From the NCBI GenBank assembly GCA_023231475.1, contig JALJEE010000678.1, positions 1 through 61,672 of the forward strand: a DNA stretch of 61,672 nt. Reading direction: 5' to 3'. Positions 1-61,191 of this stretch are shown in pieces. Source of the stretch: Seison nebaliae. Taxonomy: Eukaryota. Position 1 is the first letter of the stretch; each line of letters starts with the position of its first letter. A model generated the notes under the pieces. The model was not told the DNA's origin. It did not search any database and worked only from the letters and a program-made list of their open reading frames with translations. The position numbers were made by a program, and so were the translations under genes.

Positions 1-836
1 TCTCTAGGATCATTTATCGGACGAATGACCTTTTCCTCTCCTATATTTGCTACTTCTTGCAAAACACGATTCAAATGCTGATCTTCCTCCATATAAATGG
101 CAAGTTGCTCAGCGAAAAATTCTTCTTTTCTATTATATTCCAGTTCTACATAATTTGGATTTTGCATTTGAAAACGAATGAGTTTTCTATTATACGCTTG
201 CCAACATTGATGTATTGGCAGATGATATTGTTCACAAACTGGACAAAGTTTGACTTGTGCAACGGAATTAACACATTCGTGATGAGCTTTGAGACCTTTT
301 CGTTTTTTAAATACCTTATGACTAATTTTCTTACCACGCGGTAGGAACAAAAGTTCCTCATATGCTACTACTTTTTTCAAAAAATCACTATATAATTGAT
401 CAGCTTCATCTTCAGAGTCATGTTCCTCTACAACATCTTGTTCTTCAGGTAATTTTTCTCCATCAAAATCAAACTCATCTTCTGATTGATATTCGGGCAA
501 ATCCGTTGGATCAAGATTAGGACCATTGCCTTTAGGGTCATGTCCCTCTACAACATCTTGTTCTTCATAATATTTGGGTGTATTTTCTTTTACCATTTTT
601 TGTAGGTGACGTGCCATTGCTACCAATGTAGGTGTGGGTATATGATTTGTAACTTCATCATCTGGAATTATCTTTCTTTTTCCTCCTTCTACCATTACTG
701 CTTCTTCTTGTGGTAAAGCATTGTCATCGTCCACTTGTCTAATTTCTTTCCTGGCCTTCTTTTCAGGGTTCATTCCGTTGGACCATCGAACCAATATTAC
801 AACACAACAAAGCAAACAAATTTGAAAATGTTTCAT
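1..836 (-). CDS. Orphan secreted acidic protein, >=278 aa, runs off the left edge of the window (not in the ORF track)
   Basis: Hand translation from ATG at 836 gives MKHFQICLLCCVVILVRWSNG (signal-peptide-like) and is open to base 1. It has an internal duplication EEQDVVEGHD/EEQDVVEEHD (120-nt spacing) and a CPVCEQYHLPIHQC motif. Confidence 0.75.
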   Translation of the reverse strand, partial: MKHFQICLLCCVVILVRWSNGMNPEKKARKEIRQVDDDNALPQEEAVMVEGGKRKIIPDDEVTNHIPTPTLVAMARHLQKMVKENTPKYYEEQDVVEGHDPKGNGPNLDPTDLPEYQSEDEFDFDGEKLPEEQDVVEEHDSEDEADQLYSDFLKKVVAYEELLFLPRGKKISHKVFKKRKGLKAHHECVNSVAQVKLCPVCEQYHLPIHQCWQAYNRKLIRFQMQNPNYVELEYNRKEEFFAEQLAIYMEEDQHLNRVLQEVANIGEEKVIRPINDPR

Positions 837-1129
837 AGGAAGAAAAAAAAACAATTTAGAAAATAAAAAAAAATATAAAACAATATTTGGCTTTCTTATT
901 TGCTTAAGTATTCTTGCTTTTATTATGCGCGTTCCATTGCTTCATTGTTAACATAACATGTAAGAAGCACGTCTATGAAAGAAAAATTGTGTTGACATTA
1001 GAGACAAATAAATCGATTCCGACGTTCTTTACACCTCCATAGGTTGAGATCGATCTTGGCGTTCTCGATTCCAGCAATCCAAATTATAATATGGATTGTT
1101 AGATTCTTATTGAACGAGAAACAATGAAT

Positions 1130-2123
1130 GGAAGTAAGTTGAATCGAAGAATTGCAAAGTTTCCGTTCAGGAATCATTATCGGTTATTTTGCAGGAATCG
1201 TCCAATATCGAAATTGAGGAAGAACAATCGATCGAATTAGAATGTGAATTAAATAGAATTTCTTCATTCAAACCAAAATCGACGATGGATAATGTGGAAA
1301 TTTTTCGTGATGTCGACACGAGAGTTGAACAGAAAATTACGGAGAAAACATACACAATGAAAATAGACAAAGCTAAATTATCTGATGGTGGAAATTACAG
1401 TTTCATTTTATCAGATGGAAAATCATCAATACGATAATGTACTGTGAGCGTTAAAGAGAAACCTATAAAATTCACGAAAACTTTAACTGATATCGAATTA
1501 ACGGGAAATGAACCATTATTCGCCGATATTGAAGTGAGTGAAAAGAGAAATTGTCGTGTTGTCTTTCAAATTCAACTAACGAATAATGATCAATGGCAGC
1601 ATATACCGGTGGAAAAGAAAGGATATGATTTAGAATCGAAAGAAAAATCATTCCAATTAACCATCGATCATGTCTCACTAATGATGAATGGGAAATTGAA
1701 ATGATTCATCCAAAATACGATAAACAACGATATAACAGACGAATGTGAATCAACTGTGATTGTTCATGAATCCGCACCGATATTCGTCAAATTCTTTGAG
1801 AATTTAATTGGTAAAGAAAACTCAAATAATTAGGGAAATTAGATAAACCATTATAGGATGATGATAAAGTGGAATTTTAATTAAACGGAAATCTTATTGA
1901 ATCGAAAGAAAAATATCTAATAGAAATTAAAAATACAAATGTGAGTTTATCTGTGAGAAATATCAATTTATCAGATAATAAAGTATTTATGGTGAAGATT
2001 AATGGACAGATGGAACACGAACAATTCCGTTATGATGTGGAAGAAGATAATACAGAATTTCTGAAGAAATTGTGCGAAAAATTTGAAATAGAGTTAACAA
2101 GTGGAATTTTAATGTTCAATTAA
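1130..2123 (+). pseudogene. Degenerate tandem Ig (I-set) domains, titin/obscurin/twitchin-like fragment
   Basis: Ig motifs YTMKIDKAKLSDGGNYSF, VSVKEKPIKFTKTLTD and FQLTIDHVSL. ORFs 1189-1437 and 1444-1704 are in one frame, broken by TAA (1435-1437) and TGA (1702-1704). A further TAA at 1878-1880 falls in VEF*LNG. Confidence 0.7.
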
Positions 2124-10300: not shown

Positions 10301-13300
10301 CTATATCTATTACGTCGACTTGGATAATTGCGTTGAAGAGTGTTCATATGTATATAATTTCCATGCATTCCATTAAGAAGGTTGTCTACTGTTTCTTCTT
10401 TTGAAGAAAAGAAAGTAAATTTTCTACCTTTTAATCTGACTTTCTCCATCGGTTCTCTTCCTATTTTAATTAGTCATATTAAACTCACTTTTTCTTAAAT
10501 GTTATTCTAAGGCGAAATATTTCTTAATAAATTTATCAGTCAATTCTCTGACATGTTCACTAAGCTTAGTTTAATGTAATTCTCAATATCAGATGATCGT
10601 TAATTTGCGATATGTTCCGAAATTTTCCCACCATTCAACTTACGTAATAAAACTATTTTCTGGAAATCGCTCCATCTGTTAAGTTATTGAAGAGTTGTTG
10701 TTAATATGGTAAATTATCGGTTGTAGCATTAGCTATCATCTGTTGTATCGAGAGGAAGAAGAAGAAATTAATTGTATTCAATTTATATCGTCTATTTCTT
10801 AATGATGTAATCATGATAATGGTTCTGTCCTCTCTCACCTTTTTCTTCGAAGTTTCAATTTTGTGGAATTAATGGAAATTTTGCATTATCCTTCCTCTTC
10901 TCTATTTCCGTATGATGGAATGAAAAATTAAAAGAATATTCATAATCATTTTTCTTTTCATAGAAATCAATTAAGATTTCTTCAGTTCCCCTTCCAAAAA
11001 TCCTTCCCAACAATTTCTTTTTCTTTTCTGAAAAAGAATAAACTCCTTTCAACAAGACACTTTCCCCACACCCCCCACCGTAAGGAGATATTTTTATGAA
11101 CGCTTCCTACACTCCAATTTGATGCATGAGTACCAAAACAATAAGAAAATATTCAAAAAAAAATTTTTCCACGAAAATAAAAAGGAGTTGAGAAATATGG
11201 AAATAATCGATAATTTCAATTGATTAAAATCAATTCAATAATTATTAAACAATTAACATGGGAAATCAGCCCACACGGAAAGATATTAAATTAGTTGGTG
11301 GTAATATCGGTTTGAATGGAGTCGATCAGAAAAGTATCTTACAAGATCGTTCCTCATTGGAAACAGGTGAATGTCCACTCACTTCACAATCGATGAACAA
11401 CTTGAAGACTATTCCACGATCAACATCAGAATATCAATTCGTTCAGACATACAATCCATTAATATGGTTCAATGATAACGATGACAAATCTACTGAATCA
11501 TTACGACAAATTAAACGACGACATTGCTCCTCCACAATACCGTCACGAAATCATTCGAGTGATGTTTCCTCTGGAATAGGTTCCACCACTCTTATCTCCC
11601 AACCAAACGATGATACGGTTAATATGAAGAAAGTGGATTATCGTAATACACTTCTGGAATTATGTTCTTGTGCTCGTCGTATGCCGATAAGTAATAATGA
11701 TTATATTTATTTCCATCCGCCGATACGATCGTCTTCGGCGTCGAAAAGTCGACGACATAATTCAAAAAAGAATAAATATCAAACTAATTCAACGAGACAT
11801 ATCACTTGGTTGGATGAGGCAGGAGATACGATAATCGAATCATCATTTCTTGCCAAGAATAAAAGTGTTCCAGTAAAACGGAAAAAATACAACGACATTG
11901 ATATATATACGTCGGATATCCATTTGTGTTGTAGTAGTAAACGAAATTTGGCTAATTCACAATTAACTCGAAAACCTGATGCATCAATAACCACTTCAAA
12001 TGATAATGATAAATCAAATATTAGTGAGAGGAACCATCATCATTATCATCAACATCATCGTCAAAATGAATTGGATGATATCTATCCCAATGTTTATCAA
12101 CAACAAAAAGTACTTCAACCACAAGAGCATTACAGTCAACAAGATGATGATCCACAATTATTTTCGGCGAACGATATCGATGAAATGGAGGATGATAATA
12201 TGATGAGTCGTCGTCTGATAGAAAATATTGAGAAAAATGGAAAATTACAAATATCTGATGATTCTCTTCCATCTAACCGATATTGTGAGACATTTTCTCA
12301 TCACCAATCGAAGACAATGAATAATTTGTGTGAACCGATAAAGAAAGTAAGTTTCAGTTACAAGGATGCTGCGCCTGTAACGAAATGTTTGTTAAATTCG
12401 AACGCGGGAAATTATCAGCATTCGAGGACGGTCTCTCAACCACCTCGTCATTATTGTTCGACTACTTTAAATGAACATTCATCCAAAGAATCTCTCATGA
12501 AAGATACAGCCATGGAGAAGTATTTGATGAATGCAATCAATGAGAAGAAAGTTATTTTCACGCAATTATCTCCACATCTCAACAATAACGAATCTATCAA
12601 TTCAAAATTGGACGAGATCTCAAATGATTCATTAGACAATCTATCAAATTCCCAATCCAACGACCATAAAAACAACGATTATTGCGAGAGTAAGAAGATG
12701 AGCAATCGTCAAAATATTCCGATGGAAAATAAACCGTTCGAAAATAATCTTTCTGAACAGAATCGTCGTTTATTGGAGAAATACAATTCGTTACTTCATT
12801 CGATGGAGGAGAAACAAATTAATTGTCGTTACAGTAGCAGTACGTCATCATTAGATCAGTTACATAATGATGTGTATAATTTATGGAATTATCTTCACCG
12901 CAATGGCTTATTGTCAGACAACAATGATGTTGATAGTTATGATGATGATCAGCGTAAAATAATTATTGATGATATGGAATCGCATAATGATGATAATTCG
13001 AAACATCAATTTGCTATTTGTGAATATGAACGAATAGTGTCTCAAGGTTAACTTATTAGGTGTATTTTTCGAAATAATGGAACACATTATCATCTTCCAT
13101 TTACGTCGTCATTCTATCATTTGTTCATGTACTCGAAGAATTTGTCCATTTTACTCTTCTACTTTTTTTCTTTTAGTTCTAATAAATTGTGAGATGTCCA
13201 AACTGATTTAGATCTTCCTTTCCATTAAGATCGTTCATTCAAATATTTTATCTTCCCATCACAAACTTTAAGTTGCCCCCCATAAAAAAGAGAAATATCA

Positions 13301-31289: not shown

Positions 31290-34200
31290 ATGAACTCAAA
31301 TTTGGGAATCGATACGGATGTTGTGAATAATGCATTCGCTAAAGTACGTCAAGGAATTGAATTGGGAAAGATCAAGAATAAGGTATTTGAACGACTCTTC
31401 TACATACCGGAGCATGATAATTTTATCACTTACACATCTTCAGAAAAACCGTTCGGAAAACCAAAAACTTATTTTATCGTCGATATCGACGACATTCGAA
31501 TTGGAGTAGATACTGAAATTACACAGAAATATGAGAAGAATCTCACCGACTATCAAAAGAATAATTGTCTCTTCTCCATCGTTTATCATGACCATCGGAA
31601 GACTCTGGATTTGTTGGCGAGTTCAGAGAAAATCAGGAACAATTGGCTCATCGTCCTCACCGTTCTGACCAATGGCAAATGTCAGGGATTGAGTAATTGG
31701 TTAGAAGAACTTCGTCAATCATTTCCGTCCAAACCATCAACTGCATCATCTGGTGCTCATACGATGTTGAAGAAGAATTCTCACGAGAATTATCTTCGTA
31801 TGAAATATTATAAAATCAACAATTCATTAACAGCCTTATCAATTCATTCGTTTGATGAATTGTTGAAAAAATGTAATTTGAAAGTCAATACAATGCAACT
31901 ACAAACTTATTTCCGAGTTTATTTCATTTAGAATATTTTCAATAATCATCTTTATTTAATTTTATATTAATATTTAATCGAAATTAGATGGCAGATAGAA
32001 ATTTAGATAATAAAGTCGATTTCGATGAATTTACCAATTTCTTCGACGAATTGACCGCTCGTGATGATTTGAAGGAATTATTAAAGAAGTTTAATTTACT
32101 TTTCGAATAATTATATGTAATTTAATATGTAAATTATTCAATTGACAATTAGATATCAACCAGAAAATACGGAATATTGGGAACCGAAAAACCTCAAACG
32201 ATTCTTTCGAGAAGAGCAATTTGTTAGAAATTTAAAAATTTTCAAAAATTTCTCATATCAATTTTCAAATGTATTCAGGAAGATTTGACTAATGGGAAAT
32301 TGTATGAATATTTGGAGAAATATGAACCAGATGAAGATCTGAGAAAGAATCATTGTCTTTCCTACGACGCTTTTGTAGCATTGATGACATCGGAAGATGA
32401 ATCGATTTATGATAAAGACAAACGAGTATTATATCAATCGATGGATTATCCTCTCAATGATTACTATATTAATAGTTCACATAATACGTTCGATTTGAAT
32501 AATATTCAAAATTACAAAAAAACAATTTAAAATTTTCTATGAAATTTCTATGACAGATATTTGATGGGTGATCAATTACAAAGTGGAAGTAGTTTAGAAG
32601 CATATCGACGTACCTTGTTAGATGGATTCAGATGTGTCGAAAGTTTTTCTTTTTCATTTATTAAATTTTTTTTTAATTTTAAATTTTTTTAAATTAAATT
32701 CATCTTAATTGTTGATTAGTTGATTGTCATACGGGCGATGTGGAACCGATGGTTTATCATAAATATACGTTGACATCTAAAATTACTTTCGATTCCGTTA
32801 TTGAAATGATTGGACGATATGCTTTCACTCATACAAAGTTTGTTCATTTCATCGTTTTCATTTAATCGATTTTTTAACTAATTCGCCGATGACTATTTAA
32901 CTTATCAATCGATTCATATTAATCTTTCTCTTCTAGTGACAACAAGTAAGTTGTTCTCTAAGAAATTATTATTCACCTGATTGAACACTTTCTTCCATCT
33001 ACTAATCTCATCTATTATCTCATCTACCATCTATTATTATCGATTCTTTAGAGAAATTCATTTATGTTCACGGAATATTTTCACAAAAAATTTTTTTTTT
33101 CAAAATTATTTTTTTTATTTTTTCTTTAAGTTTTCCATTAATCATCTCAATTGAGAATCATTGTTCGTTGTCACAACAAGAAATGATGGCAAATATCTTG
33201 AAGGAACATTTATCAGGTTTTTTTCCATTTCCATATTCTCTCAATTTTTATGGTTTGTATAAAGAATATTTATTAACTTATGACGATATCGGTCGTATGG
33301 TGAAGGATAATCATTTGCCTTCTCCCAATAATTTGAGGAATAAGATTCTATTGAAAGCGAAAAGATTACCGTTAAATTCAGGCGAGTCGTCCGACATCTC
33401 CGAAGAAGAAGATGATGATTCGATAATGAACGATCAAAATAGTGAATCAAGTGATGATGAGAAGACGAAAAAGAAAGTTTCTAATTTCAAATATTCAATA
33501 TATTCAATTTGTGTTAAAAGATAAAATTAACAAAATCATTATCTGATCTCATTTATCCGATCAGTGTCCATTTCCATTCCTTCGACGATTCGTTAACATC
33601 AACAAAAGCATTTAACATGTCATCGATATCTGAGAAGAAAGCATTTAAAATGGCAGGTGATCAAAAAGCATTCGTTAAACATAATCAATATCAAATGACT
33701 CGAATTTATCCTGGAGCTCATCGACAAACATCATCAAATTTGAATCCTGTTGATTTTTGGAATGTGGGATGTCAAATCGGTTAATTTGAATTATTTCCCT
33801 TTTTTCTCCAAATCCTTCTTCAGTCGCCGTAAATCATCAGACACATGACGTGCAGACTGATATCAATATCGCCTTATTCACCCAAAATGGAAATTGTGGT
33901 TATGTATTGAAACCGGAAATATTAAGAACAAAAAGTTGAAAATTTTTAAATTTTCCAATATTTTTTATTTTGTAGATTTGAATTTTAATTCGAATGTATG
34001 TCGACCTAATGGAACGACAAATTTATTTGTAAAAGTTTCACAAAAATTTTATTTATAATTCCTCACTTTTTTCCAGATTATCAGTGCAAATCATTTACCT
34101 ATGGACGATAGCGATGTACTTGATGCCTATGTGAAAATTGAAATTTATGGAGCTACTGTTGATCAAATGGAAAGTAAAACATCTTGCGTGAAGAATAACG

Positions 34201-34482
34201 GTTAACAAAATAATAATTGTGCAATTAATTGATGATAAATTTGTAATAGGATTAAATCCGATTTGGGATGAAAAATTCAATTTCTCTATCAATTATCCTG
34301 AATTGGCATTCATTCGTTTCGAAGTAAAAGATCATGATCGAATGGGAAGAAATGATCTGATTGCACAACGAACAATACCTTTAACATGTATTCAGAATGG
34401 TTATCGAAGTATATTGTTGTATGAGAAGGATCGTGATAAAGTGGAACATGGAACATTATTCGTGCAAGTCATCATGAAATAA
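31290..34482 (+). CDS. Phosphoinositide phospholipase C, delta-like (PH-EF-X-Y-C2); 12 introns plus a putative micro-exon
   Basis: Spliced motifs YYINSSHNT-YLMGDQL, RCVE-IDC, MVYHKYTLTSKI, SIENHCS, LPSPNNLRNKILLK, TRIYPG..SSNLNP..WNVGCQI-VAVN, NGNCGYVLKP, and C2 IISANHLP..NNG-LNPIW. Both catalytic His residues are present. Donors at 31917, 32089, 32223, 32488, 32643, 32838, 33217, 33477, 33780, 33935, 34035, 34201. Confidence 0.93.
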
Positions 34483-38493: not shown

Positions 38494-38709
38494 AATTTAT
38501 CTTTTATCATTCCTCTTATGAGTTAGACAGTCATAAATATCTCCCTTCAATTATCATATGTTGTTTAAGAAAAAAGAAAACTTTATTTTTTCTTCTTTCT
38601 CATTCTCCAGATGTTATAGTGAAAAGTCAAATTTTTCCTTCTTATTCTCATTTAGGGAAATAATATCTTCCAAATAAAAGTTCGAAGTAGAAGAAGAAAA
38701 ATTGTAAAA

Positions 38710-39910
38710 ATGCATCAACATTTAAAAATGATCGAGAAGAATTTGACGATAGTGTTCGTCATATATTCGCTCTTCTCCTTCCTATTCTATGAGTTTCAAT
38801 TGAATAGTGTACCAATGGAATCATTAAAATTAATTCTTTCTCACAATCCACCGATAGGAAATAACACTAAATGGTGTAATCATTTTCCGTCAGGTTTCCT
38901 TTTCTTTCAATTTCCGTTTTTATCAGTTCTCCTTATCAGAGAAAATTATAGATGTTAATAATCAACAGAAAACTATCAAGAAACAGTTGATGGTTAATTG
39001 TGAACCGAAACAAAGAACCATCGTCGTAATTCCATATCGAGATCGAAAAGATCAACTTGATAGACTTGTGCCACATTTAATTAATTTGTTCGATCGACAA
39101 AAATTGTCTGATTTTCGATTTATCATCAGCGAACAAATCGATAGGAATCCGTTCAATAAAGGTGTTGTGATGAATGTGGGAGGAATTGAAGGACTAAAAT
39201 TCTGTTTGAATATTTCTCAAATAAATTTCGAAAATATTCCATCGTTCTTAGCGAAATATCATGAACAACTAACCAAATGTTGTTTCATTTTTCATGATGT
39301 CGATATGTTAGCTGAGAATGAAGCTAACTCTTATGTCTGCGATTATTATCATCCTCGTCATCTATCTCCGAGTGTGAATGAATTGCGATATCATTTAATG
39401 TATCCAGATTTGGTGGGAGGAGTTCTCGCATTGAATGGTCTTCAACTCTTCTTCACCAACGGTTATTCCAACTATTATTGGGGTTGGGGAGCGGAAGATG
39501 ATGATATGGCTCATCGAATTCATGCATTTAATGCCGTTCCTCAACTAAATGAAACTCATCCATTATATATATATCAGGAAATACTTTCAAATGCCAATTA
39601 TCCAATTCGACCACGAAATTACATAGGAAGATATTTCATGATGAAACATAAACGACGTGAACATTCTGATGTGCGGTTAGTACTTTAATAAAACTGAAAA
39701 AAAGAAAGTGGAAATAATTCTCCTTTCAGTTATCGACTAGTCAACAATTGGAGAAGATACAAGAATGATGGAATAAGTTCTATACAAAAATTATTTTTGC
39801 AATCCAAATTTTTTACAAAAAAAAATAGAGAATTTATTTATGTTCAATCGGTGAGACATGAGTCTATTTATACCAACATCTCCCTCAACATCTTCTGTCC
39901 TTACTACTGA
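38710..39910 (+). CDS. GT7 beta-1,4-galactosyl/GalNAc-transferase (B4GALT/bre-4 family); introns 38894-38951 and 39676-39729
   Basis: Type II TM N-terminus, VIPYRDR, PFNKG..NVG, FIFHDVD, PRHLS, NGYSNYYWGWGAEDDD and NDGISS. Confidence 0.92.
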
Positions 39911-40162
39911 TTGACTTTTTAAATGACAATGAACTTCTTGTAAATACTTCTTTTATTTATTCTTTGTTTTATTTTTGATAAATAAATCCATTTACTCTAC
40001 TTTATATCATATTACATTATCTGTATATCATCGAAATTATCTCATATAATAAAATGAAATATCATTCGAAATGGTCGGCCATGATAAATGCAATAAAAAA
40101 TGAATTACAGTTTTTAAAAGATAAAAAAGGAAAATTCAAAATATGAAGCTTCTCAACTCGTC

Positions 40163-40176
40163 GTTGTCATAGTAAC
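40163..40176. promoter_or_regulatory. RFX X-box upstream of the ciliary gene IFT54
   Basis: GTTGTC AT AGTAAC fits the X-box consensus GTHNYY-AT-RRNAAC and lies ~70 nt before the ATG at 40243. Confidence 0.8.
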
Positions 40177-40242
40177 CAAATATTTTAAATAATTTTACTA
40201 ATCACCTATTTGTAGCAGTCAATAAAATAGGTTTTCAATAAA

Positions 40243-42734
40243 ATGACGAACACGAGTGATAATGTCGATATCGATATTATCAAAAAAACGCAAGCCATGT
40301 TAAGTAAAATTATATCCGCTCCAGCATTGACTGAGAAGTTATTGAGTAAACCACCAGTCAAATATATACAAGACATAGTTCTCTCAATTAATCGAAGTGC
40401 TAATTACATGAATGACTTATATTCGACCGAAGAACTTGATACGAAATATTTGAAAGTTCTTCATTTTCACTAATCGCATTTGAGTTCACGTTTTTCATAA
40501 TTTATAATTTTTAAGATATCGGTCGAAAATCGGACTTCGTTTCTTGACAAATTAATTTATTATGTAGGTTCATTTTCTATCTTCTATTAATGGAAATCAT
40601 TTCATTCTCAGCATATGCGAATGGTGAAAAACTTGGAGTTAAATCTACTCATATTATTGCTGGAACGAATGCAGATAAAACTAACGAACTTCTACAAGGA
40701 TTGGCACGAGCTGTAATCGAAAAAGTTTCAAATTCCATTCACAATTTTATGGCATATTTTCATAAAATTAGGTTGATGACAAGAAAGCTGTGAGGAAGAC
40801 GTTAAGTAAAATGGAAAAGAAGAAATTGGGTACAGGAGATGCAACGACACATCCTCCCAAAGCACCAACAGGAACTACTACGATGACAATGAATGAGAAT
40901 GAAGGTAAAGAAGAGAAAAAGAAAAAAAAGAAGAAAGTGGTCGATGAATCGCATGAGAAAGACGAGGAGAAAGAAGAACGTCCTAAAAAGAAGAAAGATC
41001 GTCATCATCATAACGAGAATGGAGAGGAGAGTGAAAAACATAAGAAGAAGAAACATCGAAGAAAAGACAATTCGAAACCGGATGATGATGAAGAACAAAC
41101 CGGATCTCGAACACATTCCAACACGAACAAGAAAAAGAAGTTTCTGATTAATTTAAACATAATAGGAAATATAATTTTATGTGTTTTAGGAAGAAGAGAA
41201 CTGATAATTCGGATGATGAAAAAGAAGTTAGAACAAAATATTTCTTTTTCCATATTAAAATGTTTTGATATGATTCCATTAAAACATTAAAAGGATCTCA
41301 GTGTGATGAGTGAGAGTCGTCATTCGAATAAGCATAAGAGAAAAAGACATCATAGGAAATCGATTGAAGAGAGAGTTTATAGGAACATAAGATCTGCTGG
41401 TACTGCACCATCATCAGCATCGAAAAAACTATTAGGTAAGTTTGTGTAATTCAAAAAAGTGGAATATAAAAATTTTGAGTCTTGAAATATTATTTGCTTT
41501 TAATTCTTATGATTTTATTCTGCTTTTTCCGCACTGTTAGAATAATCGATCATCTCGACCGTTATCAGCCAAATCGAAAAACCGAACGGTACATCGCCAA
41601 GGTATTTCTTGCTTTTTCCGCCTATTTTATTCTTACATTTTATCATTGATATTCATTAAACTTTCACAGATTCAATTGATGAGTTAAAATTTTTTTTTGA
41701 AAATTTAAAATTTTTATTTATTTTAATTATTTAATTTAGAACTGGAACTACAACAACTTCCGCCACTAGACATGGAAGGAAATCATCTGCAGTTCAAGAA
41801 GAAACTGAAATGATGAAAGGGGAAGAAGAAGAAGAGAAAGAGAATGAATTCGATCAACATCTCACAAGATCGTCAAGACCGAAAACGGCTCGACCACCTC
41901 CGCCCAAATCAACAAAAACAAAAATCGAACATGAAGAACCTGCAGTCAGTCAACCAACCGGACCATATGTGACAACTTTAAGTTATTATTTTACAAAATA
42001 GATCATATTAATTCTTTTCAGATAATACAACGGAAGGAATACCGAATAATAATGAACATGTCAAATTAGATGATGACGATGATGATGATGATGATGATAA
42101 GGACTTTATTGTACAAGAAGAGATCGAAGATGAGAAGGATATGTTCGACAATTTAGAAGAGGAAATTCAAGACGACGGATTGGAGGATGGTGGTCTTGTA
42201 AAAAAGATGAAACAGAATGCCCAAAATTATCAAGCTATGACAGAAGACGATGAATTTGTTTCTCAATTATTTTTTAAATTTTTTTCAAAATTTTTCTTTT
42301 TTCAGAACAATAAATTTGATTCAACTCAAATGAAAGAACGTGAAGCAATTGGATTGAAGGTGAAAGAAATGCAGAATAGTATTCAAAATTTAAGTAAAAG
42401 GTAAATTAAATTTAAATTTTTTCAATTCTATAAATTCTCTTCCATAATCTCCAGTACTCAACCATTGGCACGTATTTTGGATTTCCTTCAAGAGGATTTA
42501 GATACGATGCAACAAGAAAAGACACGATGGTCTGCAGAAGCCAAAAGGAATTTGGAAGAGATTAAAGCGAAGGAATATGAAAATGAAACGAAACTTTTAC
42601 CATTAAAGAGTGACCTCTTGAAAATGGAGGCAGATGTGGGAAATATGAATCAGAAGATCGCCATCCTAAAGAGGAAGGTGATGAATAATGATGTACGATG
42701 TGGTAAGATAATAATGTCGATTTTTGAAAAATGA
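40243..42734 (+). CDS. TRAF3IP1: Intraflagellar transport protein 54 (TRAF3IP1/MIP-T3/DYF-11), multi-exon
   Basis: N-terminal CH-like domain IKKTQAML..PALTEKLLSKPP..IIAG..KTNELLQ, KE-rich middle, RPKTARPPPP, GGLVKKM and C-terminal coiled coil PLARILDFLQEDLDTMQQE. Confidence 0.93.
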
Positions 42735-45111: not shown

Positions 45112-46815
45112 TTACCGTTCATCTGAATGTTTCCTTTTCGAACGATTTCGATATTCTCTCCGATGTGATTTATGATGAGAAGATTTATGACGTCTCTCAC
45201 GACGATCATCATCATTCCTAGAAGATGAACGTCGTCTACGACTCTTCTTATTTGCATGGTCACTCCTCTCATAAGAATCAGGAGATGTATGTCGTTTCCG
45301 TAATGTTTTATTCTCCGAATGATCTACATATTAAAATTTAACAAAAAATTTAAATAAGATTATAAGAAAATTCTAACCACGATGTCTTGACGATTTATTT
45401 CCTTTCAAGAGAGCGATAACGTCATTCCTTTAATAAAATTTAATTGATAAGAAGAGGAAAATTTGAAAATGAACTCTTTAGCATTATTACGAGAATGATC
45501 GGGATTGTCATTCCAATGTCGAGGATGGAATGAAGAGGAATGATCATTTCTATTTTGATGATTTTCATTATAATGAGAATGACGATGATTATTCCGATTA
45601 TCGTCCATCGAATTATTGATTGGATGAAATTGGGATTCGGGTTGATTGGGTTGATGAGACGGTATTATTCTATTGAAAAATTAATTTTAATAATAAATTT
45701 TTTTAAAATAAATGAAGAAAACTAACGAATTTATCGGCATGAATGGTTGTTGAGTGAGTAATGGAACATTTCCTGGTGGTGGACCAAACCATGGAATCAT
45801 CGAAGGATTATCACCCAATTGACCCATCAAACCCGCGTTATGTGGATGATGATGATGATGATCATTATTTTGATGATGATCTTCCTCCATTCCAGGTGGA
45901 CGTGTCAAATCATAGACAGTTGTTTCCGAGTCATTATTTGACTGATTCATCGTATTCATTAAAGTATTCAATTGTGATTGATTATTCAATCCAGTAATTG
46001 GAGTCGATATCGAGTTATCGGGTGGTAATGTCGTTCCCATTTTGAAGAGTCGTTGAAATTGTGATTGAGGAATATCATTCTTTTTCGCTTGTTCACTTAA
46101 ATAAGAAAAATTAATAAAAAGGATAAATAAAAAAAATGATAAACTTATATCGATTATAAATGAAATGAATTAATGGATCATTTGAAACGATTGTATCTTT
46201 ATTTCCATTTACATCTTCTTCAGCGTCTAAGAATTTTGTCGCCTAAATATTATTAATTAAAATTAATTTTAAAAAAGAAAAAAGAGAAAAAACATTTTTA
46301 TTAATATGATATCCATTTAGGATTCTCAATGCACGTTGTCGTCGACAATATTGTGACCAGGATTCTTCATTAAAACCATAATTGAAATAATCAGTCAAAT
46401 CAGCATCTGGTGTCTTCCACGGTTTCTCTTTCTCCGGTAATTTATACAAATCATAATCATAAATTATTGTCGTTCCCAACGTTCCCAATTGATTGATATC
46501 AACTCCCGTTTTTGTTCTCTTATTTCCCACTCCGAGAGCTGGAGCAGATATCGAATTCGAATTAACATTCCCTTCCTCTTTCTTCTTATTTTCCGTACTA
46601 CCACTCAAATAGAAAACGACACAATCATCTTCCTCTTCTTCATCATCGTCATAATCATAATCGGAATCATCATCTTCGTCATCATCTTCATCATCGTTCG
46701 TTAATTTCGTAACTAAATCTTCCGACGTCGAAAAGTTTTCCGTATTTATTTCCGACGGAATTGACAATGGTAGATCGTGACTGATGATAACTTCATCCAA
46801 TTCTGGATTTACCAT
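45112..46815 (-). CDS. FIP1L1: Pre-mRNA 3'-end processing factor Fip1 (6 exons)
   Basis: Fip1 motif EKPWKTPDADLTDYFNYGFNEESWSQYC, acidic N-terminus, Pro-rich middle and Arg/Ser/His-rich last exon ending KRKHSDER*. Five GTT..AG introns keep the frame. Confidence 0.92.
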
Positions 46816-49997: not shown

Positions 49998-51563
49998 TTA
50001 GAAGTTTGAAGAGACGGGAATTGATGTCAATGATTCTTTGAATTTCTCTCGGAAAGACAGATACCAATCGCTCACTATTTGCATATCCTCTTTAGCGAAT
50101 TGTTGGGGGAATGTGTGTTGTAACATGTCGTCATGAGATTTCCTTAATCGGAAATCTTTCTGAAGACAATCCTCAACGAAACTCGTCAACGATTTTGTTG
50201 GAGTTCGTTTCGCTGTCGCTGTTAATCTCGGCGCATCACCATTCACAATTTCCGATTGTGTTTGAAATGATTTATGACGATATTTATAATATGGATTCTT
50301 TCCATGAAACATCTCATAAACGGTAATTCCCACACTCCAAATATCAGTTCGTGACGGATTTTTATTGATGGGAAGTTCGATCAGTTCCGGTGCAACATAA
50401 GCATAAGACCCTAACGTATTAGATGCACGTTGTGAATTGAGTAGTAATCCACTCACACTGAAATCACATAATTTGATTTGTTTCCCATTATCATTTAGTA
50501 GAATGTTCGACGGTTTCAAATCACGATATTCTAATTGATGTTCCTTCCTCAAATAAGAGAGAGCGTTCAATATCTTCAAATTGTCATGAAATAATTAAGA
50601 AAGTTTAATGGAATGAGCAACTGCAATAATTGTATGTCCAATAACGAATTCCGGTAATCCATCGTCATCAAAATATTTTATTAATTTATCGAAACACGTA
50701 TCCATCAATTCGAGACAGAGCCACAACTGAGAATGATTCATATCAGCCGAAATATGACCATAAGACAAGATGATATAAGGATGATTCTTCGCTTTACTAG
50801 TCACGAATAAATCCATCAAAATTCGTCGATCCTCCTGGAAGATTCCACAACCACTCATTTTCTTCAAAATTAAAAAAAAATTTTAAAATTTTAGAAAATA
50901 AAAAAAAATTTAAAATTTTAGAAAATAAAAAAAAATTTAAAGTTTTAGAAAATTTAAAAAAATTTTAAAATTTAAGAAAATAAAAAAAAATTTAAAGTTT
51001 TAGAAAATAGAAAAAAGTTTTAAAATTTTGGGAAATAAAAAATTTTTTTTTTTTTTTTTTTTTTTTAAATATAATAATAATATGGAAATTATTGGAAAAT
51101 AAAAAAAAATTTTAAATTATAAAAGGAAAAAAAAAATTTTAAATTTTTTTAAAATTTTTTTTAAAAAAAACGAACTTTTACCGCCATTAATTTGTTGGAT
51201 GGTTTATGTCTCATTTTGTACACGTCACCATATGCCCCTTTGCCCAATAGTTCCAGAACATCGAAATGTTCAAAATCGACGTCGTCATATCGCTCCTGAA
51301 AGGAAAGAAATGTCATTAGAGATTGAGAGAAATGAACTTGATTCGGGAACATTAAACGACCCGACTCTTCGATCAGTTTATCTCGTTGCGCACGAATCTC
51401 CACACTAGACGTCCACCCAGCGGAGAGGAATGAGATGAGTTAGTGAAATAAATTCCAACTCTGTCACCGAACCATTCTGGATGTTGGCTGGTGTTGTGGT
51501 TTGAACGGAAATGTTATCCGATACAACGTCGATCGCACATGGTCGTCGTCGATCGTTGGTCAT
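49998..51563 (-). CDS. MAP2K7: MAP kinase kinase of the MKK7/MKK4 group; introns 51459-51405, 51337-51296, 51175-50862, 50621-50574
   Basis: N-terminal docking-like RRRPCAI, LGKGAYGDVYKMRHKPSNKLMAVK-KM, RRILMDL, WLCLELMDTCFDKL, RDLKPSNILL, IKLCDFSVSG.L.NS and DIWSVGIT. Confidence 0.85.
50866..51170. repeat. A/T-rich ~28-bp tandem repeat filling the long MAP2K7 intron
   Basis: Units like aaaattttagaaaataaaaaaaaattt repeat ~6-8 times, with a T25 run. Confidence 0.8.
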
Positions 51564-53586: not shown

Positions 53587-55339
53587 TTAATTTTCAACAA
53601 GTTTTAAAACTTTATTAGTTTCTATCTCTCCCTTGGGAAGTTTCCAATGTTTCCTGAATTGTTATTGATTTATATTTCTTAAATAAAAATTAAGGAATGA
53701 AAAAATAACCGTCGTTGTTTCAATCCATCGAAAACATTTAGAAATTGTATTTGAATTTCAATAACTTGTGCACGTTTACTGTTGAACCTAATTGCAGGTA
53801 TATAATCGGTTAATTGTCGTTCTGTTGTATAAAGTTTAGATAATTTCCTTTCTCCACTAATACTGCCACTATTAAATGAAATGAAGTGAAATTTCAATGA
53901 TAAGTTGAGAGAGGAAGTTAAACTATAAGAAATTTGTCCAAACTTCTTTCGGACTATTTTCTTGGAATACGGTAAAGTCTAAAGATATTATCGTTGACGT
54001 GAAAGTGTTCAATCCAATCTCTATTTGAAAATGAAATACTTTTCAAAAGAAATTTAACAAAAAAATTTAAAGAATGAATAACAACAAAAAGGATATATTC
54101 CATTTGTATTTAAATAAAACTTAGACATTTTTTCTTTGATAGATTCCCGTCTAAAAACTCGAGAGAAAAACTGACGAGCTAAATCCAAAAAATTTATAAA
54201 TCTCTTCTTTCTCACTTTCTCAATTTTCCATTGTTCCCCTAACATCACGCAATCTTCTTTCTCTTCACATTCGATACATTTTCCCTCGTCGAATAGTTTG
54301 AGAGATGTACATCGATAAGCTCTAAATATACAAATATCACCATCATAATGGAAATTTCTTGGATCATATAATTGACCGAGAGCAGTGGCTTCTTCATATA
54401 ACGCTATGGATGAAGTATAAAGTTTCGTAGCTCGCGTATGTGAACATGAAACATATGACACTAGAAATAAATTATTTCCTTCAATTATTTCAAAATTGAA
54501 CTCGATCGTCGATTTTTACAACCAACTTGATTATGTCCTCCATTGACAAAGATGTCGACGGTACCCCAAATTTTGTTGGAACCAAATTTGAACATATTTG
54601 AATCTGTATGAACTACCTGAACAAACGACGCATCACTTTCGTCTAACGTCACCGCTTTCGATTTCCCTTCAAATGATAGTCCAGCAGGATCGAGTGCTTA
54701 GAAAACGATTATTTGATGACTATTTAAAAGAATTAAATTCAACCAATTATTTTATTGATTCCTTTAAAAAATTTACCTATTCGACCAGCGAGATGCGCAG
54801 ATAAACTAAATGATATTAGATCGATATGTTCCGGTAGGAATTTCGGATATCTCCTCGTCATTTTCAATAAAAATTGAACAGTTTTATCTGCAATTTCATT
54901 AATATATTGAACGGCAAGAGCGTATGATAATGAGGCGACTGAATGCCAATCAAGAATAAAGAGATTTATTTTGATCTTTTATAAAATTTAAGCAAAATTT
55001 AAATTTAACAATTTACCAACGTTACTTATTAAGCGCTGTTTACTTAACTGTATCCAATCGGAGTTAATGTTTTGGAGATAAGCGTGAAGAAACATTTTTG
55101 TTCGTTCTTCTTCATTGAAAACTGAAGAAATTTTTTCAAATTCTACATTTGTTAATTTCGATAAATTGATTATACAATTTTTTCCATTACTGTATACGAG
55201 ATAAATAAATGAAGAACAATATTTTACGATTAGAACAATAAATTAACCTACCAATGACATGTAATTTTGTATCGAAAGTAAATGAATAAGTTTCATGAAT
55301 GAAAATCCAGTACGAAAAGAAGAGGATTAAATTAAACAT
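53587..55339 (-). CDS. Secreted pancreatic-lipase-family protein with a C-terminal PLAT-like domain (8 exons)
   Basis: Spliced product has a signal peptide, TKMFLHAY, NLFILDW, HIDLISFSLSAHLAG, KII-ALDPAG, LDESDASFVQVVHTD, GTVDIFVNGGHNQVGC, CSHTRA, FYLNT..YPFC-LFHFQIEI. Confidence 0.85.
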
Positions 55340-57407: not shown

Positions 57408-59678
57408 TTATTCATTCAAATATTGATGAAATGTTATGTTCATTCGATAGTACTCGGAAATGATGTCGGTGAGATTGAAAACGAATAATTGAATTTTCTC
57501 CAATTCATATTGTTTGTCATAGAGGAGATAATTGGAGAAAGTGAGATAATCCAATTTCGTCATGAAACTCGATAATTGATTTTTGAATAATAGATAATTA
57601 TTTATTTTAGAAAAAACGAGTAAATAATTCGAATATTTCACTCTCTCCTCCACCAGATAATGTGAGACGTGACGATGTAATTTGTACCAGCAACGCGATT
57701 TCTTTTCTTGAAGGCAATTGATGGACAAATGTCTCTCCTTCTCATTCAACGTGTCGATATGAAGGAAACGTTTGAAGAAATCATTTAATAATTCCTTCTT
57801 ATCATAAATATATGTGTTAATTTTTGGATGGATAACAGAAAATATTTGATGGAAATTCATTTTCAAATTTCGATCGATTGAATCGAAATTCCAATATTGT
57901 AATTCGAAGGAAGCAAAAGGAATGAACAATTCAGGTAAATCATTAACGAATTCATTCGTTAATGGAAATATTAGACATTTGAATTGATTAGTTGTGATGG
58001 AATTGAAATAAGAACAAATTTCATGAAATTGGAGTTGAATTGGAAAAGTTCTCCCCAATGATTTAGGTAGGAAGAGAACGAAGAAATTATTTATTAAATT
58101 TATCGACTTCCCATAAAGTTCATGTGATAAGAAATTATTTAATTCGCAAATATTGTTAATAACGACAACTGATTCATTATCATCAATATGGTAATTGTGA
58201 TTGTCTAATAATTCAGTTTGACATTTCTTATCGATCGATTTCTTCCGATTTCCATGAAGATGTGAAATGAAAAGAAAAAGAAATTCATTCAAATTCTCAT
58301 TCAATCCAATATCATAACATTCATTCTGATGATGGTGACTAATCAAAATCGATGACGTTTCATATCTCGTCGAATATTGATCAATGAAGAATTCGGTCGC
58401 ATTAGTAGAAGAATTTAAGAGAAATTGAATATCGAATAATTTTGAATTAACATTTTCTTTCGAACATTCCGCACAAGAATTTCGAATCGATTCATGATTC
58501 AATTGATGGAATGATGAAATATCGATGGATTTATTTCCATTGATTTTTTGAAAACGAACAAGTGTCGAAATAAATTCGAAATATTTGAATAAACAATCCG
58601 AACAATTATCTTCTTTTAATCTCAATAAGAATTTCGTTACATATTCAACTCGTCGACGATTTGTTGAAGAATAAACGATCGATCGTTTCGGATGAATTTT
58701 TTGAATAAATAAATGATCGTATGGAAAATATTTCTCATCGATTCTCTTCGAAGAATAAACGGATTTCGGTATAATATGAAATGGTGTGAAACAATGTCGT
58801 ATGAGGTAATTGCGAGTCAATTGAACAATTGTCGATTTGGTGAGTGGTTTGTGTTGAAGGAAATTTATGATTTGCATTTCCAATTTTGAATTTAAACAAA
58901 ATAATCGAAAAGATGATTTTTCCATCGACGTCTCATTTTGAATGAGTAAATATAGTTGTGGTATCACATCAACACTATTCAAAAAATATTGATGATGATT
59001 CAACTGATGAACGAGATAAACGAATGATTCATATATCGAATTCTCCAGCGTTAATTCTGAAATTTTAAATTTGACAATTATTATTCGATAATTGGATTTC
59101 TTTGGAAATTGTGTTGGGGAATTTGTGTCGAACAAATTCCGTCCATTCGATTGATCATTCCAAATATTTAATGAATTCATCATACTCAATATCGGATTGG
59201 AATGACGATATCGATCTAAATCGGATCGATTATCGATTATTTTGATTGGAGAAATAATGAGATTATAAATCCATCCGATCAATTCATTCGATCGAAATGT
59301 ACCGAAATAATTGAAATTTCTTCCATAACTTCCCAAATAAATTTTTGTGAATGGATATCCTGATAAACTAATACCATACTTTTTCCGACATCGTTGACTG
59401 GACCAGCAATCGATTTCGAAAAATTTCAAAAAATTCGAATATCTCTTGAAATATTTTCTCACTTTTTCAAATTCATGAAAACTGTTCTCGGATGATAAAC
59501 TCCAAAGTCGTGCGTGATAGAAAACGACGACGTTATCACCGTTATGGAACGATCTATCCACCAATTCCATCGATCTCTCATATTTGGTGAGGTAGGTTGA
59601 AGTTAATTGTAAATATCCGTTCGATCCCACAAATCCATCAAACAGATTCAATATGATAACAACTATTACATTGAACAT
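57408..59678 (-). CDS. TXNDC11/EFP1-like thioredoxin-fold protein (redox motif lost), intronless
   Basis: Hydrophobic N-terminus, then VVVFYHARLWSLSS..FFEIDCWSSQRCRKKY..GYPFTKIY..YFG, matching TXNDC11 FYAPW..AINCW...CRK...FP.I.LY...Y.G. The rest is divergent. Confidence 0.65.
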   Translation of the reverse strand: MFNVIVVIILNLFDGFVGSNGYLQLTSTYLTKYERSMELVDRSFHNGDNVVVFYHARLWSLSSENSFHEFEKVRKYFKRYSNFLKFFEIDCWSSQRCRKKYGISLSGYPFTKIYLGSYGRNFNYFGTFRSNELIGWIYNLIISPIKIIDNRSDLDRYRHSNPILSMMNSLNIWNDQSNGRNLFDTNSPTQFPKKSNYRIIIVKFKISELTLENSIYESFVYLVHQLNHHQYFLNSVDVIPQLYLLIQNETSMEKSSFRLFCLNSKLEMQIINFLQHKPLTKSTIVQLTRNYLIRHCFTPFHIIPKSVYSSKRIDEKYFPYDHLFIQKIHPKRSIVYSSTNRRRVEYVTKFLLRLKEDNCSDCLFKYFEFISTLVRFQKINGNKSIDISSFHQLNHESIRNSCAECSKENVNSKLFDIQFLLNSSTNATEFFIDQYSTRYETSSILISHHHQNECYDIGLNENLNEFLFLFISHLHGNRKKSIDKKCQTELLDNHNYHIDDNESVVVINNICELNNFLSHELYGKSINLINNFFVLFLPKSLGRTFPIQLQFHEICSYFNSITTNQFKCLIFPLTNEFVNDLPELFIPFASFELQYWNFDSIDRNLKMNFHQIFSVIHPKINTYIYDKKELLNDFFKRFLHIDTLNEKERHLSINCLQEKKSRCWYKLHRHVSHYLVEERVKYSNYLLVFSKINNYLLFKNQLSSFMTKLDYLTFSNYLLYDKQYELEKIQLFVFNLTDIISEYYRMNITFHQYLNE

Positions 59679-60164
59679 ATCAACTCATTACCACATCATT
59701 GACATTCGCTTTGTGGCTTATCATCCTTCGGCTTCTCAATTGAAAGAAAGAATTAAGAAATGTTCATTATTTCTATCACAAAATCATTTATTTTTTTCAT
59801 AACCATTTCCATAACTTGTCTTCATTCCTATTATTCATCTGAACTATATCCTTCAATTAATTTGGGATTAATGGTCCTATTTCATCTAGTACATTTCCAT
59901 AATTATGGATACTTAAACTATATAATTTGATATATGAAAATAATTCATTTCTTATTCTCTGATTTGAATGTTTATTATGGAAATTCTTTCACATAATAAT
60001 TATTGTAAAGAAAACATTAATCATAGAATCATTTATCGTTAAAAAAGCATCTTAAACATCTCGTTAAACAATTAATTTCGCTACTATTCTAGACTACAAA
60101 TTTTTGTTTCAATAATTACAGTTTTTTTACGTCTTTCCAAATTCTAATAATTTTCATAAACTAA

Positions 60165-60314
60165 AATTTATTAGAGGAAAATTTCTAATTATTTTTTTTT
60201 TGAAGGAAAATTTCTAATTGTGAAATTTATTAAAGGAAAATTTCTAATTATGAAATTTATTAAAGGAAAATTTCTAATTATGAAATTTATCATAAGAAAA
60301 TTTCGATATATGAG
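60165..60314 (+). repeat. 30-bp tandem repeat (aaatttattaaaggaaaatttctaattatg), ~4-5 copies
   Basis: 30-nt periodicity from 60201 to 60314, plus a degenerate copy upstream. Confidence 0.85.
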
Positions 60315-60696: not shown

Positions 60697-61191
60697 ATGG
60701 AACAAACGTATATTATGATCAAACCGGACGGTGTCCAACGAGGACTTGTCGGCGAAATCATTAAACGATTCGAACAACGTGGTTATTTGTTGAGAGCCAT
60801 GAAATTCATGCAAGCCTCACGAGAATTGTTGGAGGAACATTACGGCGATTTGAAATCTAAACCATTTTTTCCATCACTCGTCGAATATATGTCATCGGGA
60901 CCAGTGGTCGCTATGGTTTGGGAAGGAAAATCGGTCGTGAAAATGGGACGTGCAATGTTAGGCGCTACCAATCCATTAGACTCAGCACCAGGAACCATTC
61001 GTGGTGATTTCTGTATTGATGTTGGACGGTTCAAAATTATTTTTCTTATTTTTTTTTAAATATTTTCCTTCAGAAACATTTGTCATGGTAGTGATTCAGT
61101 AGAATCGGCGAAGAAAGAAATCGGTCTTTGGTTCAAAGAAGGAGAAGTCACTAACTGGTCTTCTGCCACCACCGGACAAGTTTATGAATAA
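60697..61191 (+). CDS. NME: Nucleoside diphosphate kinase, group I NME (intron 61029-61073)
   Basis: [68 protein letters not shown]. Confidence 0.97.

What the first reader, a model, noticed from the sequence alone, without database searches (positions are those of the whole stretch)
54697..55251. Canonical-looking GTA donors are bypassed in favour of neighbouring GTT donors
In the lipase, G|GTAGGT (55251) sits 4 nt from the donor AG|GTTAAT (55247), and only GTT keeps the frame. G|GTAAAT (55016) sits 4 nt from AAC|GTTGGT (55020), and again only GTT keeps the frame. AG|GTAAAT (54776) would delete the GKFFKGINKII segment that precedes LDPAG, so GTTGAA (54743) is favoured by homology. Elsewhere, IFT54 skips TAT|GTAGGT (40564) for GTTCAT (40568; frame). 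MAP2K7 skips GCG|GTAAAA for GTTCGT (51175; needed for the AVK motif). PLC skips GTAAAA for GTTTCA (34035; homology). Inference: GTT is actively preferred over sites that a standard U1 would bind better, not merely tolerated.
Basis: partly seen in the sequence, partly recalled or inferred. Interest (0 to 1): 0.8.

Follow-up and report, generated by a model that had tools for sequence, protein, structure and literature searches.

The report
Rotifer whose introns start with GTT
In this stretch of DNA from the small marine rotifer Seison nebaliae, 47 of 49 introns placed by protein homology or reading frame begin with GTT instead of the usual animal GTA/GTG, even where a textbook GTA signal lies a few bases away, so its splicing machinery likely reads intron starts by a changed code, most likely through a rewritten U1 RNA that has not yet been looked for.

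Summary
The window is a Seison nebaliae contig (named proteins match at 100%). The six cited sites are as described, and the pattern is far wider: 21 of 22 annotated and 26 of 27 frame-curated donors are GTT (chance 41-53%, P<=3e-11). A +3-neutral spliced alignment using only non-Seison homologues recovers all 12 PLC donors as GTT, but gives 2 GTT of 26 confident donors in other eukaryotes. The signal is (A/G)|GTT with +4 free and modest +5 G. GTA is disfavoured, not banned: AAG|GTAAAT (42401) is frame-forced and an annotated micro-exon uses GTAAGT. Two cited decoys are weak, and one is explained by distance. No RNA junctions and no snRNA gene were available. Best reading: a major spliceosome with changed +3 recognition, likely a U1 with A opposite +3 (0.52); the rival is normal U1 with selection at U6/U5 or proteins (METTL16 is scored missing in Seison alone of 25 syndermatans). 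A +1-shifted register fits poorly. The published precedent is Entamoeba (GUUUGU, co-evolved U1); my searches found no animal case. This scan noted GTT donors before in Bonamia and unidentified eukaryotes.

The parts
55190..55247 (-). lipase intron 1, donor TAG|GTTAAT, 58 nt
   Evidence: frame from ATG 55339; not in the NCBI model; alternative GTA 55251 + acceptor 55143 also open
55246..55251 (-). bypassed GTA site TTG|GTAGGT
   Evidence: sequence; stop after 35 codons with the nearer acceptor
54976..55020 (-). lipase intron, donor AAC|GTTGGT, 45 nt
   Evidence: P0002 exact mapping; gap-free to PDB lipases
55011..55016 (-). bypassed GTA site TTG|GTAAAT
   Evidence: sequence; in-frame only with acceptors that delete 11 or 28 conserved residues
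54697..54743 (-). lipase intron, donor TTG|GTTGAA, 47 nt
   Evidence: P0002; PDB and Pfam continuity
54771..54776 (-). bypassed GTA site TAG|GTAAAT (would give 80-nt intron, minus 11 residues)
54461..54501 (-). lipase intron, donor CGA|GTTCAA, 41 nt
   Evidence: P0002
54021..54175 (-). annotated lipase intron with the only GTC donor; doubtful
   Evidence: GTT donors at 54085 or 54082 with acceptor 54039 give 47/44-nt introns in the same frame
53654..53923 (-). two further annotated lipase introns (53923-53869, 53709-53654), both GTT
50574..51459 (-). four MAP2K introns (51459-51405, 51337-51296, 51175-50862, 50621-50574), all GTT; decoy GTA at 51181
   Evidence: P0153 and orthologue P0001; gap-free to MKK4
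31917..34249 (+). twelve PLC introns (donors 31917, 32089, 32223, 32488, 32643, 32838, 33217, 33477, 33780, 33935, 34035, 34201), all GTT; decoy GTA at 34029
   Evidence: P0004; recovered independently from non-Seison homologues
32937..32951 (+). 9-nt PLC micro-exon (32937-32945) with canonical donor GTAAGT at 32946: counter-example
   Evidence: annotated isoform P0154; no RNA check
40456..42305 (+). IFT54 introns with GTT donors (40456, 40568, 40725, 41140, 41227, 41683, 41982, 42258); decoy GTA at 40564
   Evidence: frame and Pfam MIP-T3 continuity
42401..42454 (+). IFT54 intron with donor AAG|GTAAAT, 54 nt: counter-example, no GTT available
   Evidence: only one of 11 in-frame options keeps the stretch matching Chlamydomonas-type IFT54 chain 8bd7_X
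41436..41669 (+). unresolved IFT54 segment: either GTA donors (41436, 41602) or an all-GTT path (41440, 41561)
61029..61073 (+). NDK intron, donor ACG|GTTCAA, 45 nt
   Evidence: frame; Pfam NDK 108 to 111 across the junction
45324..46293 (-). five FIP1 introns, all GTT
   Evidence: frame; Pfam Fip1
38894..39729 (+). two galactosyltransferase introns (38894, 39676), GTT
   Evidence: frame; Pfam; diverged-lineage contig conserved to 39680

Best explanation
Seison nebaliae introns are short GT-AG introns whose donors are almost all (A/G)|GTT, likely spliced by a major (U2-type) spliceosome whose U1 snRNA is predicted to carry an A opposite intron position +3 (ACUAAC or the Entamoeba-type ACAAAC in place of ACUUAC), read in the normal register. 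Shown: GTT in 47 of 49 donors; purine at -1; free +4; G enriched and T avoided at +5, with +5 G making up for a pyrimidine at -1; introns of 40-77 nt (45 of 48); acceptors TAG/CAG/AAG. Inferred: U1 first marks GTT sites; the purine-rich exon end would pair with the U-rich U5 loop 1 and +5 G with U1 C4/U6 ACAGA; a window of about 40-70 nt to the AG picks among candidates (intron definition). A GTA site carries one mismatch and would win only if it matches well elsewhere or has no GTT rival, as at 42401 and 32946. Loss of U6 methylation (METTL16) may have removed the usual +4 A preference.
For: Donor counts and position matrix; independence from annotation; control loci 2 GTT of 26; -1 purine in 40 of 47 used versus 10 of 33 bypassed GTT, P=1e-6; +5 G 13 versus 2.0 expected; -1/+5 compensation 5 of 7 versus 8 of 40, P=0.012, which places the signal in the normal register; +6 G 1 of 47. 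One A at U1 position 6 raises separation of 51 used from 106 bypassed GT sites from AUC 0.61 to 0.79 and flips 5 of the 6 cited pairs to the used site. Precedent: the one published +3U lineage, Entamoeba, has a matching U1 (bioRxiv 10.1101/2022.06.08.495308, passages).
Against: No U1, U5 or U6 gene is in the window (0 Rfam hits) and no genome was held, so the U1 change is a prediction. The AUC gain is partly circular, because the variant was drawn from the same donors; any mechanism that favours +3 U would score alike. Roy and Bowser list several lineages with atypical donors and unchanged U1 (yeasts, Giardia, Trichomonas, Mamiellales, Thecamonas). Two GTA donors appear to be used, one with a GTT 4 nt away. 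No RNA junction was seen. One 62-kb contig only.
Confidence: 0.52

Rival explanations
1. U1 is canonical and pairs loosely; +3 U is imposed later, when the donor is handed to U6 and U5 (changed U6 ACAGAGA box, unmethylated U6 after METTL16 loss, or diverged U1-C, Luc7 or Prp8).
For: METTL16 is scored Missing in Seison and in none of the other 24 syndermatans, and U5-40K Missing in 2 of 25, in the BUSCO table of PMC12256650 (supplement rows); METTL16 loss shifts use toward donors with strong U5 loop 1 pairing and away from +4 A (PMC11732430 section 8), as seen here (-1 purine, no +4 A excess). Atypical donors with canonical U1 are common. Canonical GTAAGT still works at 32946.
Against: METTL16 loss predicts +4 U, but +4 T is depleted here (15 versus 23.8 expected) and it does not predict +3 U. 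BUSCO 'Missing' is weak in a species missing 356 of 954 genes; SNRNP27K is Complete.
Confidence: 0.3
2. A canonical U1 binds one base downstream (shifted register): -1 purine with U10, +1 G with C9, +3 U with A7.
For: Explains both -1 A/G and +3 U without a new RNA; known for rare human sites (PMC4856993 passages); +5 purine 30 of 47.
Against: The shift predicts G at +6 (1 of 47), purine at +4 (20 of 47, no better than bypassed sites) and pyrimidine at -2 (16 of 47, lower than bypassed); G is at +5 instead; AUC 0.66 overall and 0.61 among GTT sites; it fails 3 of the 6 cited pairs.
Confidence: 0.08
3. +3 is simply unconstrained and drifted to T in T-rich introns; GTA sites are used too, but the frameshifted products are degraded or unannotated.
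For: Introns are 51% T; avoidance of R-GTT in coding DNA is not strand-specific; no junction reads were seen.
Against: Drift predicts about 53% GTT, not 47 of 49 (P=3e-11); +4 and +5 are poorer in T than the intron body; in-frame GTA rivals (34029, 51181, 54776) are absent from the models and from the homology-based calls.
Confidence: 0.06
4. The GTT consensus is an artefact of a gene predictor or of my curation, or reflects introns spread by one mobile element.
For: How the NCBI models were made is not known to me; set B was curated by me; one annotated donor (54175) looks wrong.
Against: Non-Seison homologues alone give the same 12 PLC donors; PDB alignments are gap-free; human-like priors converge on GTT; introns are no more alike than shuffles, with 0 of 49 terminal inverted repeats and 1 of 49 boundary repeats; one PLC position is shared with two other eukaryotes that use GTAAG there.
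Confidence: 0.04

Closest known systems
Entamoeba GUUUGU(U) donors with co-evolved U1 (ACAAAC); Roy and Bowser, bioRxiv 10.1101/2022.06.08.495308 (passages read)
   Same: U at +3 in nearly all donors; GT-AG introns; AT-rich compact genome
   Different: Entamoeba is intron-poor with a strict six-base motif (88-90% GUUUGU); Seison is an intron-rich animal (12 introns in PLC) whose +4 to +6 are loose and whose exon end carries signal; its U1 is untested
Mastigamoeba balamuthi GUGCGC donors with U1 ACGUAC (same preprint)
   Same: intron-rich lineage with a shifted donor consensus
   Different: change is at +4, not +3
GUAUGU lineages with canonical U1 and METTL16/SNRNP27K loss (Saccharomycotina; PMC11732430)
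   Same: loss of +4 A preference; METTL16 scored missing in Seison
   Different: +3 stays A and +4 becomes U there; here +3 is U and +4 is free; SNRNP27K is scored present
Shifted and bulged U1 registers at atypical human donors (PMC4856993; Roca and Krainer 2009 seen only as cited)
   Same: GUU-starting donors
   Different: about 1.5% of human sites and dependent on a displaced consensus; here the majority class, with G at +5 and not +6
Standard metazoan U2-type donor CAG|GUAAGU (PMC9311317)
   Same: GT-AG ends, +5 G enrichment, -1/+5 compensation
   Different: +3 is T instead of A/G; -1 is more often A than G; no +4 A

Membership tests
U2-type (major) GT-AG spliceosomal introns | GT...AG termini | tested here: met
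   all 22 annotated introns map to GT-AG
U2-type (major) GT-AG spliceosomal introns | donor consensus GTRAG complementary to canonical U1 | tested here: not met
   +3 T in 47 of 49; no +4 A excess; only +5 G and -1 purine remain
U2-type (major) GT-AG spliceosomal introns | branch-point motif near the 3' end | tested here: inconclusive
   five short motifs no commoner than in shuffles of 47 introns
U2-type (major) GT-AG spliceosomal introns | removal by U1/U2/U4/U5/U6 snRNPs | not testable with these tools
   no snRNA in the window, no genome; core splicing proteins are scored Complete for Seison in PMC12256650's table
U12-type (minor) introns | GTATCCT donor and CCTTAAC-type branch site | tested here: not met
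   0 and 1 of 52
Entamoeba-type transformed donors | near-universal +3 U | tested here: met
   47 of 49
Entamoeba-type transformed donors | strict GUUUGU (+4 U, +5 G, +6 U) in an intron-poor genome | tested here: not met
   +4 T 15, +5 G 13, +6 T 28 of 47; 12 introns in PLC
Entamoeba-type transformed donors | U1 snRNA 5' end changed to match the donor | not testable with these tools
   only predicted
Shifted-register (+1) donors | consensus displaced by one base (G at +6, purines at +4/+5) | tested here: not met
   +6 G 1 of 47; G at +5; AUC 0.61 among GTT sites
Introner / transposon-derived introns | shared internal sequence, terminal inverted repeats, target duplications | tested here: not met
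   46 short introns no more alike than shuffles; 0 of 49 inverted repeats; 1 of 49 boundary repeats

The most novel reading that the evidence does not exclude
Seison nebaliae is an animal that has recoded the 5' splice site genome-wide: an intron-rich metazoan whose U1 snRNA is rewritten to read GUU, probably alongside loss of U6 methylation by METTL16, so that thousands of ancestral GTA/GTG donors were converted while a few strong GTA donors survive.
Probability: 0.5. Interest if true: 0.85.

Novelty: new variant of a known kind. Interest (0 to 1): 0.7.

Why it matters
The donor signal and the 5' end of U1 are among the most conserved features of animal gene expression. The published +3U case is an intron-poor amoeba with a rigid motif, where co-evolution of few introns with U1 is easy to picture. 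An intron-rich animal with 96% GTT and otherwise loose donors would show that thousands of introns can be moved to a new code, and it isolates position +3, so it can test whether U1 or the later U6/U5 step sets the consensus. The decisive checks need only the public genome and RNA reads. It also warns that standard splice models will mis-annotate this lineage.

Tried and rejected
No whole genome was held, and Rfam found 0 families in the window, so no snRNA could be read. Sequencing runs: no RNA holder listed; four runs laid on 38500-41690 all behaved as DNA contigs and none of the 6 joints listed was an intron removal. The published transcript-to-genome table of PMC8351084 is held only in part (19,906 rows); 36 coordinate or exon-length terms and one part read gave no row matching this contig; the unseen part may hold the junctions. 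The IFT54 homologue search gave no hit among 87 candidates; the exon before 42401 had no PDB or Pfam match. An annotation-free count of GTN upstream of 316 acceptor-like sites showed no clear peak. Exonic depletion test: in 771 exonic positions 38-72 nt upstream of 44 acceptors, R-GTT 3 versus 3.9 expected, Y-GTT 5 versus 8.5, R-GTA 3 versus 3.2, Y-GTA 9 versus 2.4 (P=0.001, one of eight tests); in 16.5 kb of coding DNA R-GTT is depleted on both strands (z -4.3 and -3.2): inconclusive. No branch-point motif. I first took 41436 and 41602 as used GTA donors and dropped them when an all-GTT path proved equally open. Shifted register, U12 type and introner origin were tested and rejected.

Full report
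Origin. An exon of the lipase found one protein, at 100% identity, named Seison nebaliae SNEBB_008662 on a contig of 61,672 bases; the PLC (P0004, isoform P0154) and MAP2K (P0153) proteins are on the same contig, and an 87%-identical S. nebaliae MAP2K (P0001) lies on another. S. nebaliae is a seisonid rotifer; its genome paper reports two diverged lineages and compact genes, and says nothing on donor sequence in the three passages holding 'intron' or 'splice' (PMC8351084).

The six sites. The sequences are as cited. Four GTT donors (55020, 54743, 51175, 34035) are in the NCBI proteins and are backed by distant homologues: gap-free alignment to pancreatic lipases and to MKK4, Pfam continuity and the PLC alignment. 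40568 is forced by frame. 55247 is supported by frame with the nearest acceptor, but the GTA at 55251 stays in frame with an acceptor at 55143. A standard U1 pairs better with the decoy in five pairs and ties in one by H-bond count (17/15, 15/13, 17/10, 16/13, 12/12, 10/7); by duplex energy the PLC pair ties instead. Two decoys (51181, 34029) are weak sites, and in two (55251, 40564) the canonical-looking +5/+6 GT is the real donor's own GT. On their own the six pairs are suggestive; the strength lies in the whole set.

The whole set. Of 22 introns in three annotated proteins, 21 start GTT and one GTC; that one has GTT alternatives of normal length in the same frame. Of 27 further introns that I curated by frame in recognisable or long-ORF genes, 26 start GTT and one GTA; I left out the introns that the gene finder placed in doubtful or antisense models, and two IFT54 donors that proved unresolved. 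GTT is 40.7% of all GTN in the window and 24 of 45 GTN inside introns, so 47 of 49 has P=2e-16 or 3e-11. Three checks free the result from the annotation. A gene finder run on 11 gene regions with human-like donor weights (recalled figures, 3% T at +3) called 31 GTT of 46 at once and 47 of 51 after self-training, the same end point as from a flat start. A spliced alignment to a profile of 12 non-Seison PLCs called 13 introns: the 12 annotated GTT introns, unchanged when +3 T was penalised, and one weak extra GTG gap. The same method on 80 PLC loci from metagenomes called 65 introns; of the 26 with well-aligned flanks (17 loci), 21 were GTA, 3 GTG and 2 GTT, against 7 of 7 GTT for Seison at that threshold. 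These controls are of unidentified eukaryotes, eight loci are close kin sharing two positions, and most are less AT-rich. One PLC intron position is shared with two control loci, which use GTAAG there. DNA contigs of a diverged lineage align over exons and in several cases end at or just after the GTT, for example 40610-40727, a weak sign of conservation.

Anatomy of the signal (47 GTT donors). -1 is A 27, G 13, C 3, T 4; 33 bypassed GTT nearby have a purine in only 10 (P=1e-6). +4 is flat; +5 has G 13 (2.0 expected) and T 7 (23.8 expected); +6 is T 28, A 16, G 1. Five of the 7 donors with a pyrimidine at -1 have +5 G, against 8 of 40 others (P=0.012), the familiar -1/+5 compensation. Introns are 40-77 nt in 45 of 48, 84% A+T, and end TAG 19, CAG 17, AAG 12. 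No branch motif stood out. So +3 T is a specific, near-invariant requirement in a donor that is otherwise loose.

Exceptions. At 42401 in IFT54, AAG|GTAAAT is the only one of 11 in-frame options that keeps the conserved stretch, and no GTT is near. The annotated PLC isoform P0154 has a 9-nt exon ending at GTAAGT with a GTT 4 nt further on. The same eight bases AG|GTAAAT are used at 42401 (54-nt intron) and bypassed at 54776 (80 nt), which points to distance as a second criterion. GTA is therefore disfavoured and not forbidden.

Mechanism. Scoring 51 used against 106 bypassed GT sites, canonical U1 gives AUC 0.61, a +1 shift 0.66, U1 with A opposite +3 0.79, and the Entamoeba-type end 0.85, the last two overlapping; the single change flips five of the six cited pairs, all but the distance case (the used set still held the two unresolved GTA sites). 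This is partly circular and shows fit, not cause. It does argue against the shifted register, as do +6 G (1 of 47) and G at +5. I favour a U1 changed at position 6 (0.52) because the one published +3U lineage has such a U1 (bioRxiv 10.1101/2022.06.08.495308, passages). The rival is selection at hand-over to U6 and U5 (0.30): the same preprint lists lineages with atypical donors and normal U1, and a BUSCO table scores METTL16 Missing in Seison alone of 25 syndermatans (PMC12256650 supplement rows). METTL16 loss favours exon-strong donors and removes +4 A (PMC11732430, section 8), as here, but it predicts +4 U, which is depleted. The two can hold together. Neither could be tested: no snRNA gene, genome or RNA read was available.

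Novelty. Ten full-text searches found no description of Seison donors ('Seison' with 'splice site': 2 papers, passages read, neither on the consensus; with 'spliceosom': 0) and no animal with a GTT consensus; the library lacks most subscription journals, bioRxiv supplements were closed, and the transcript table of PMC8351084 was cut. Two cross-species donor surveys were read only in passages (PMC10599564, PMC3033335). Earlier notes of this scan report GTT donors in Bonamia and in unidentified eukaryotes, one with a second U1; I did not check them. Whether other rotifers lean the same way is untested. Verdict: a real, strong, probably genome-wide change of the donor code in an animal; a new variant of the Entamoeba kind; mechanism predicted, not shown.

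Noticed in passing
window 54790-54810 (-): The lipase nucleophile elbow reads S-F-S-L-S where the aligned pancreatic lipases have G-H-S-L-G; the serine is kept.
   Followed up: no
window 55339-55248 (-) and 54175-54021 (-): The NCBI lipase model probably starts too late (an upstream ATG with a hydrophobic leader is in frame) and its GTC intron likely removes coding sequence.
   Followed up: partly
window 32937-32945 (+): 9-nt alternative micro-exon in PLC (adds three residues in the X domain), with one of the few canonical donors.
   Followed up: partly
window 41436-41740 (+): IFT54 segment with possible 13-, 20- and 33-nt exons and two canonical-looking donors; several in-frame paths.
   Followed up: partly
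introns window-wide: AAG ends 12 of 48 introns and no branch-point motif is detectable.
   Followed up: partly
window 50862-51175 (-): The 314-nt MAP2K intron is swollen by a 27-nt A/T tandem repeat, 6.4 copies.
   Followed up: no
window 60164-60304: 30-nt tandem repeat, 4.7 copies, upstream of NDK.
   Followed up: no
window 1138-1701 (+): Two abutting same-frame ORFs separated by a single stop, with an immunoglobulin-like look (recalled, no call); may be a decayed gene.
   Followed up: no
window 3-941 (-): 313-codon ORF running off the contig end with a repeated acidic motif; unidentified.
   Followed up: no
window 57411-59684 (-) and 11249-13048 (+): Long intronless ORFs (758 and 600 codons) not searched against any library.
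   Followed up: no
PMC12256650 supplement, BUSCO sheet: METTL16 scored Missing only in Seison of 25 syndermatans; U5-40K Missing in Seison and one bdelloid.
   Followed up: partly
exonic 38-72 nt upstream of acceptors: Pyrimidine-GTA occurs 9 times against 2.4 expected; could be chance or relics of older donors.
   Followed up: no
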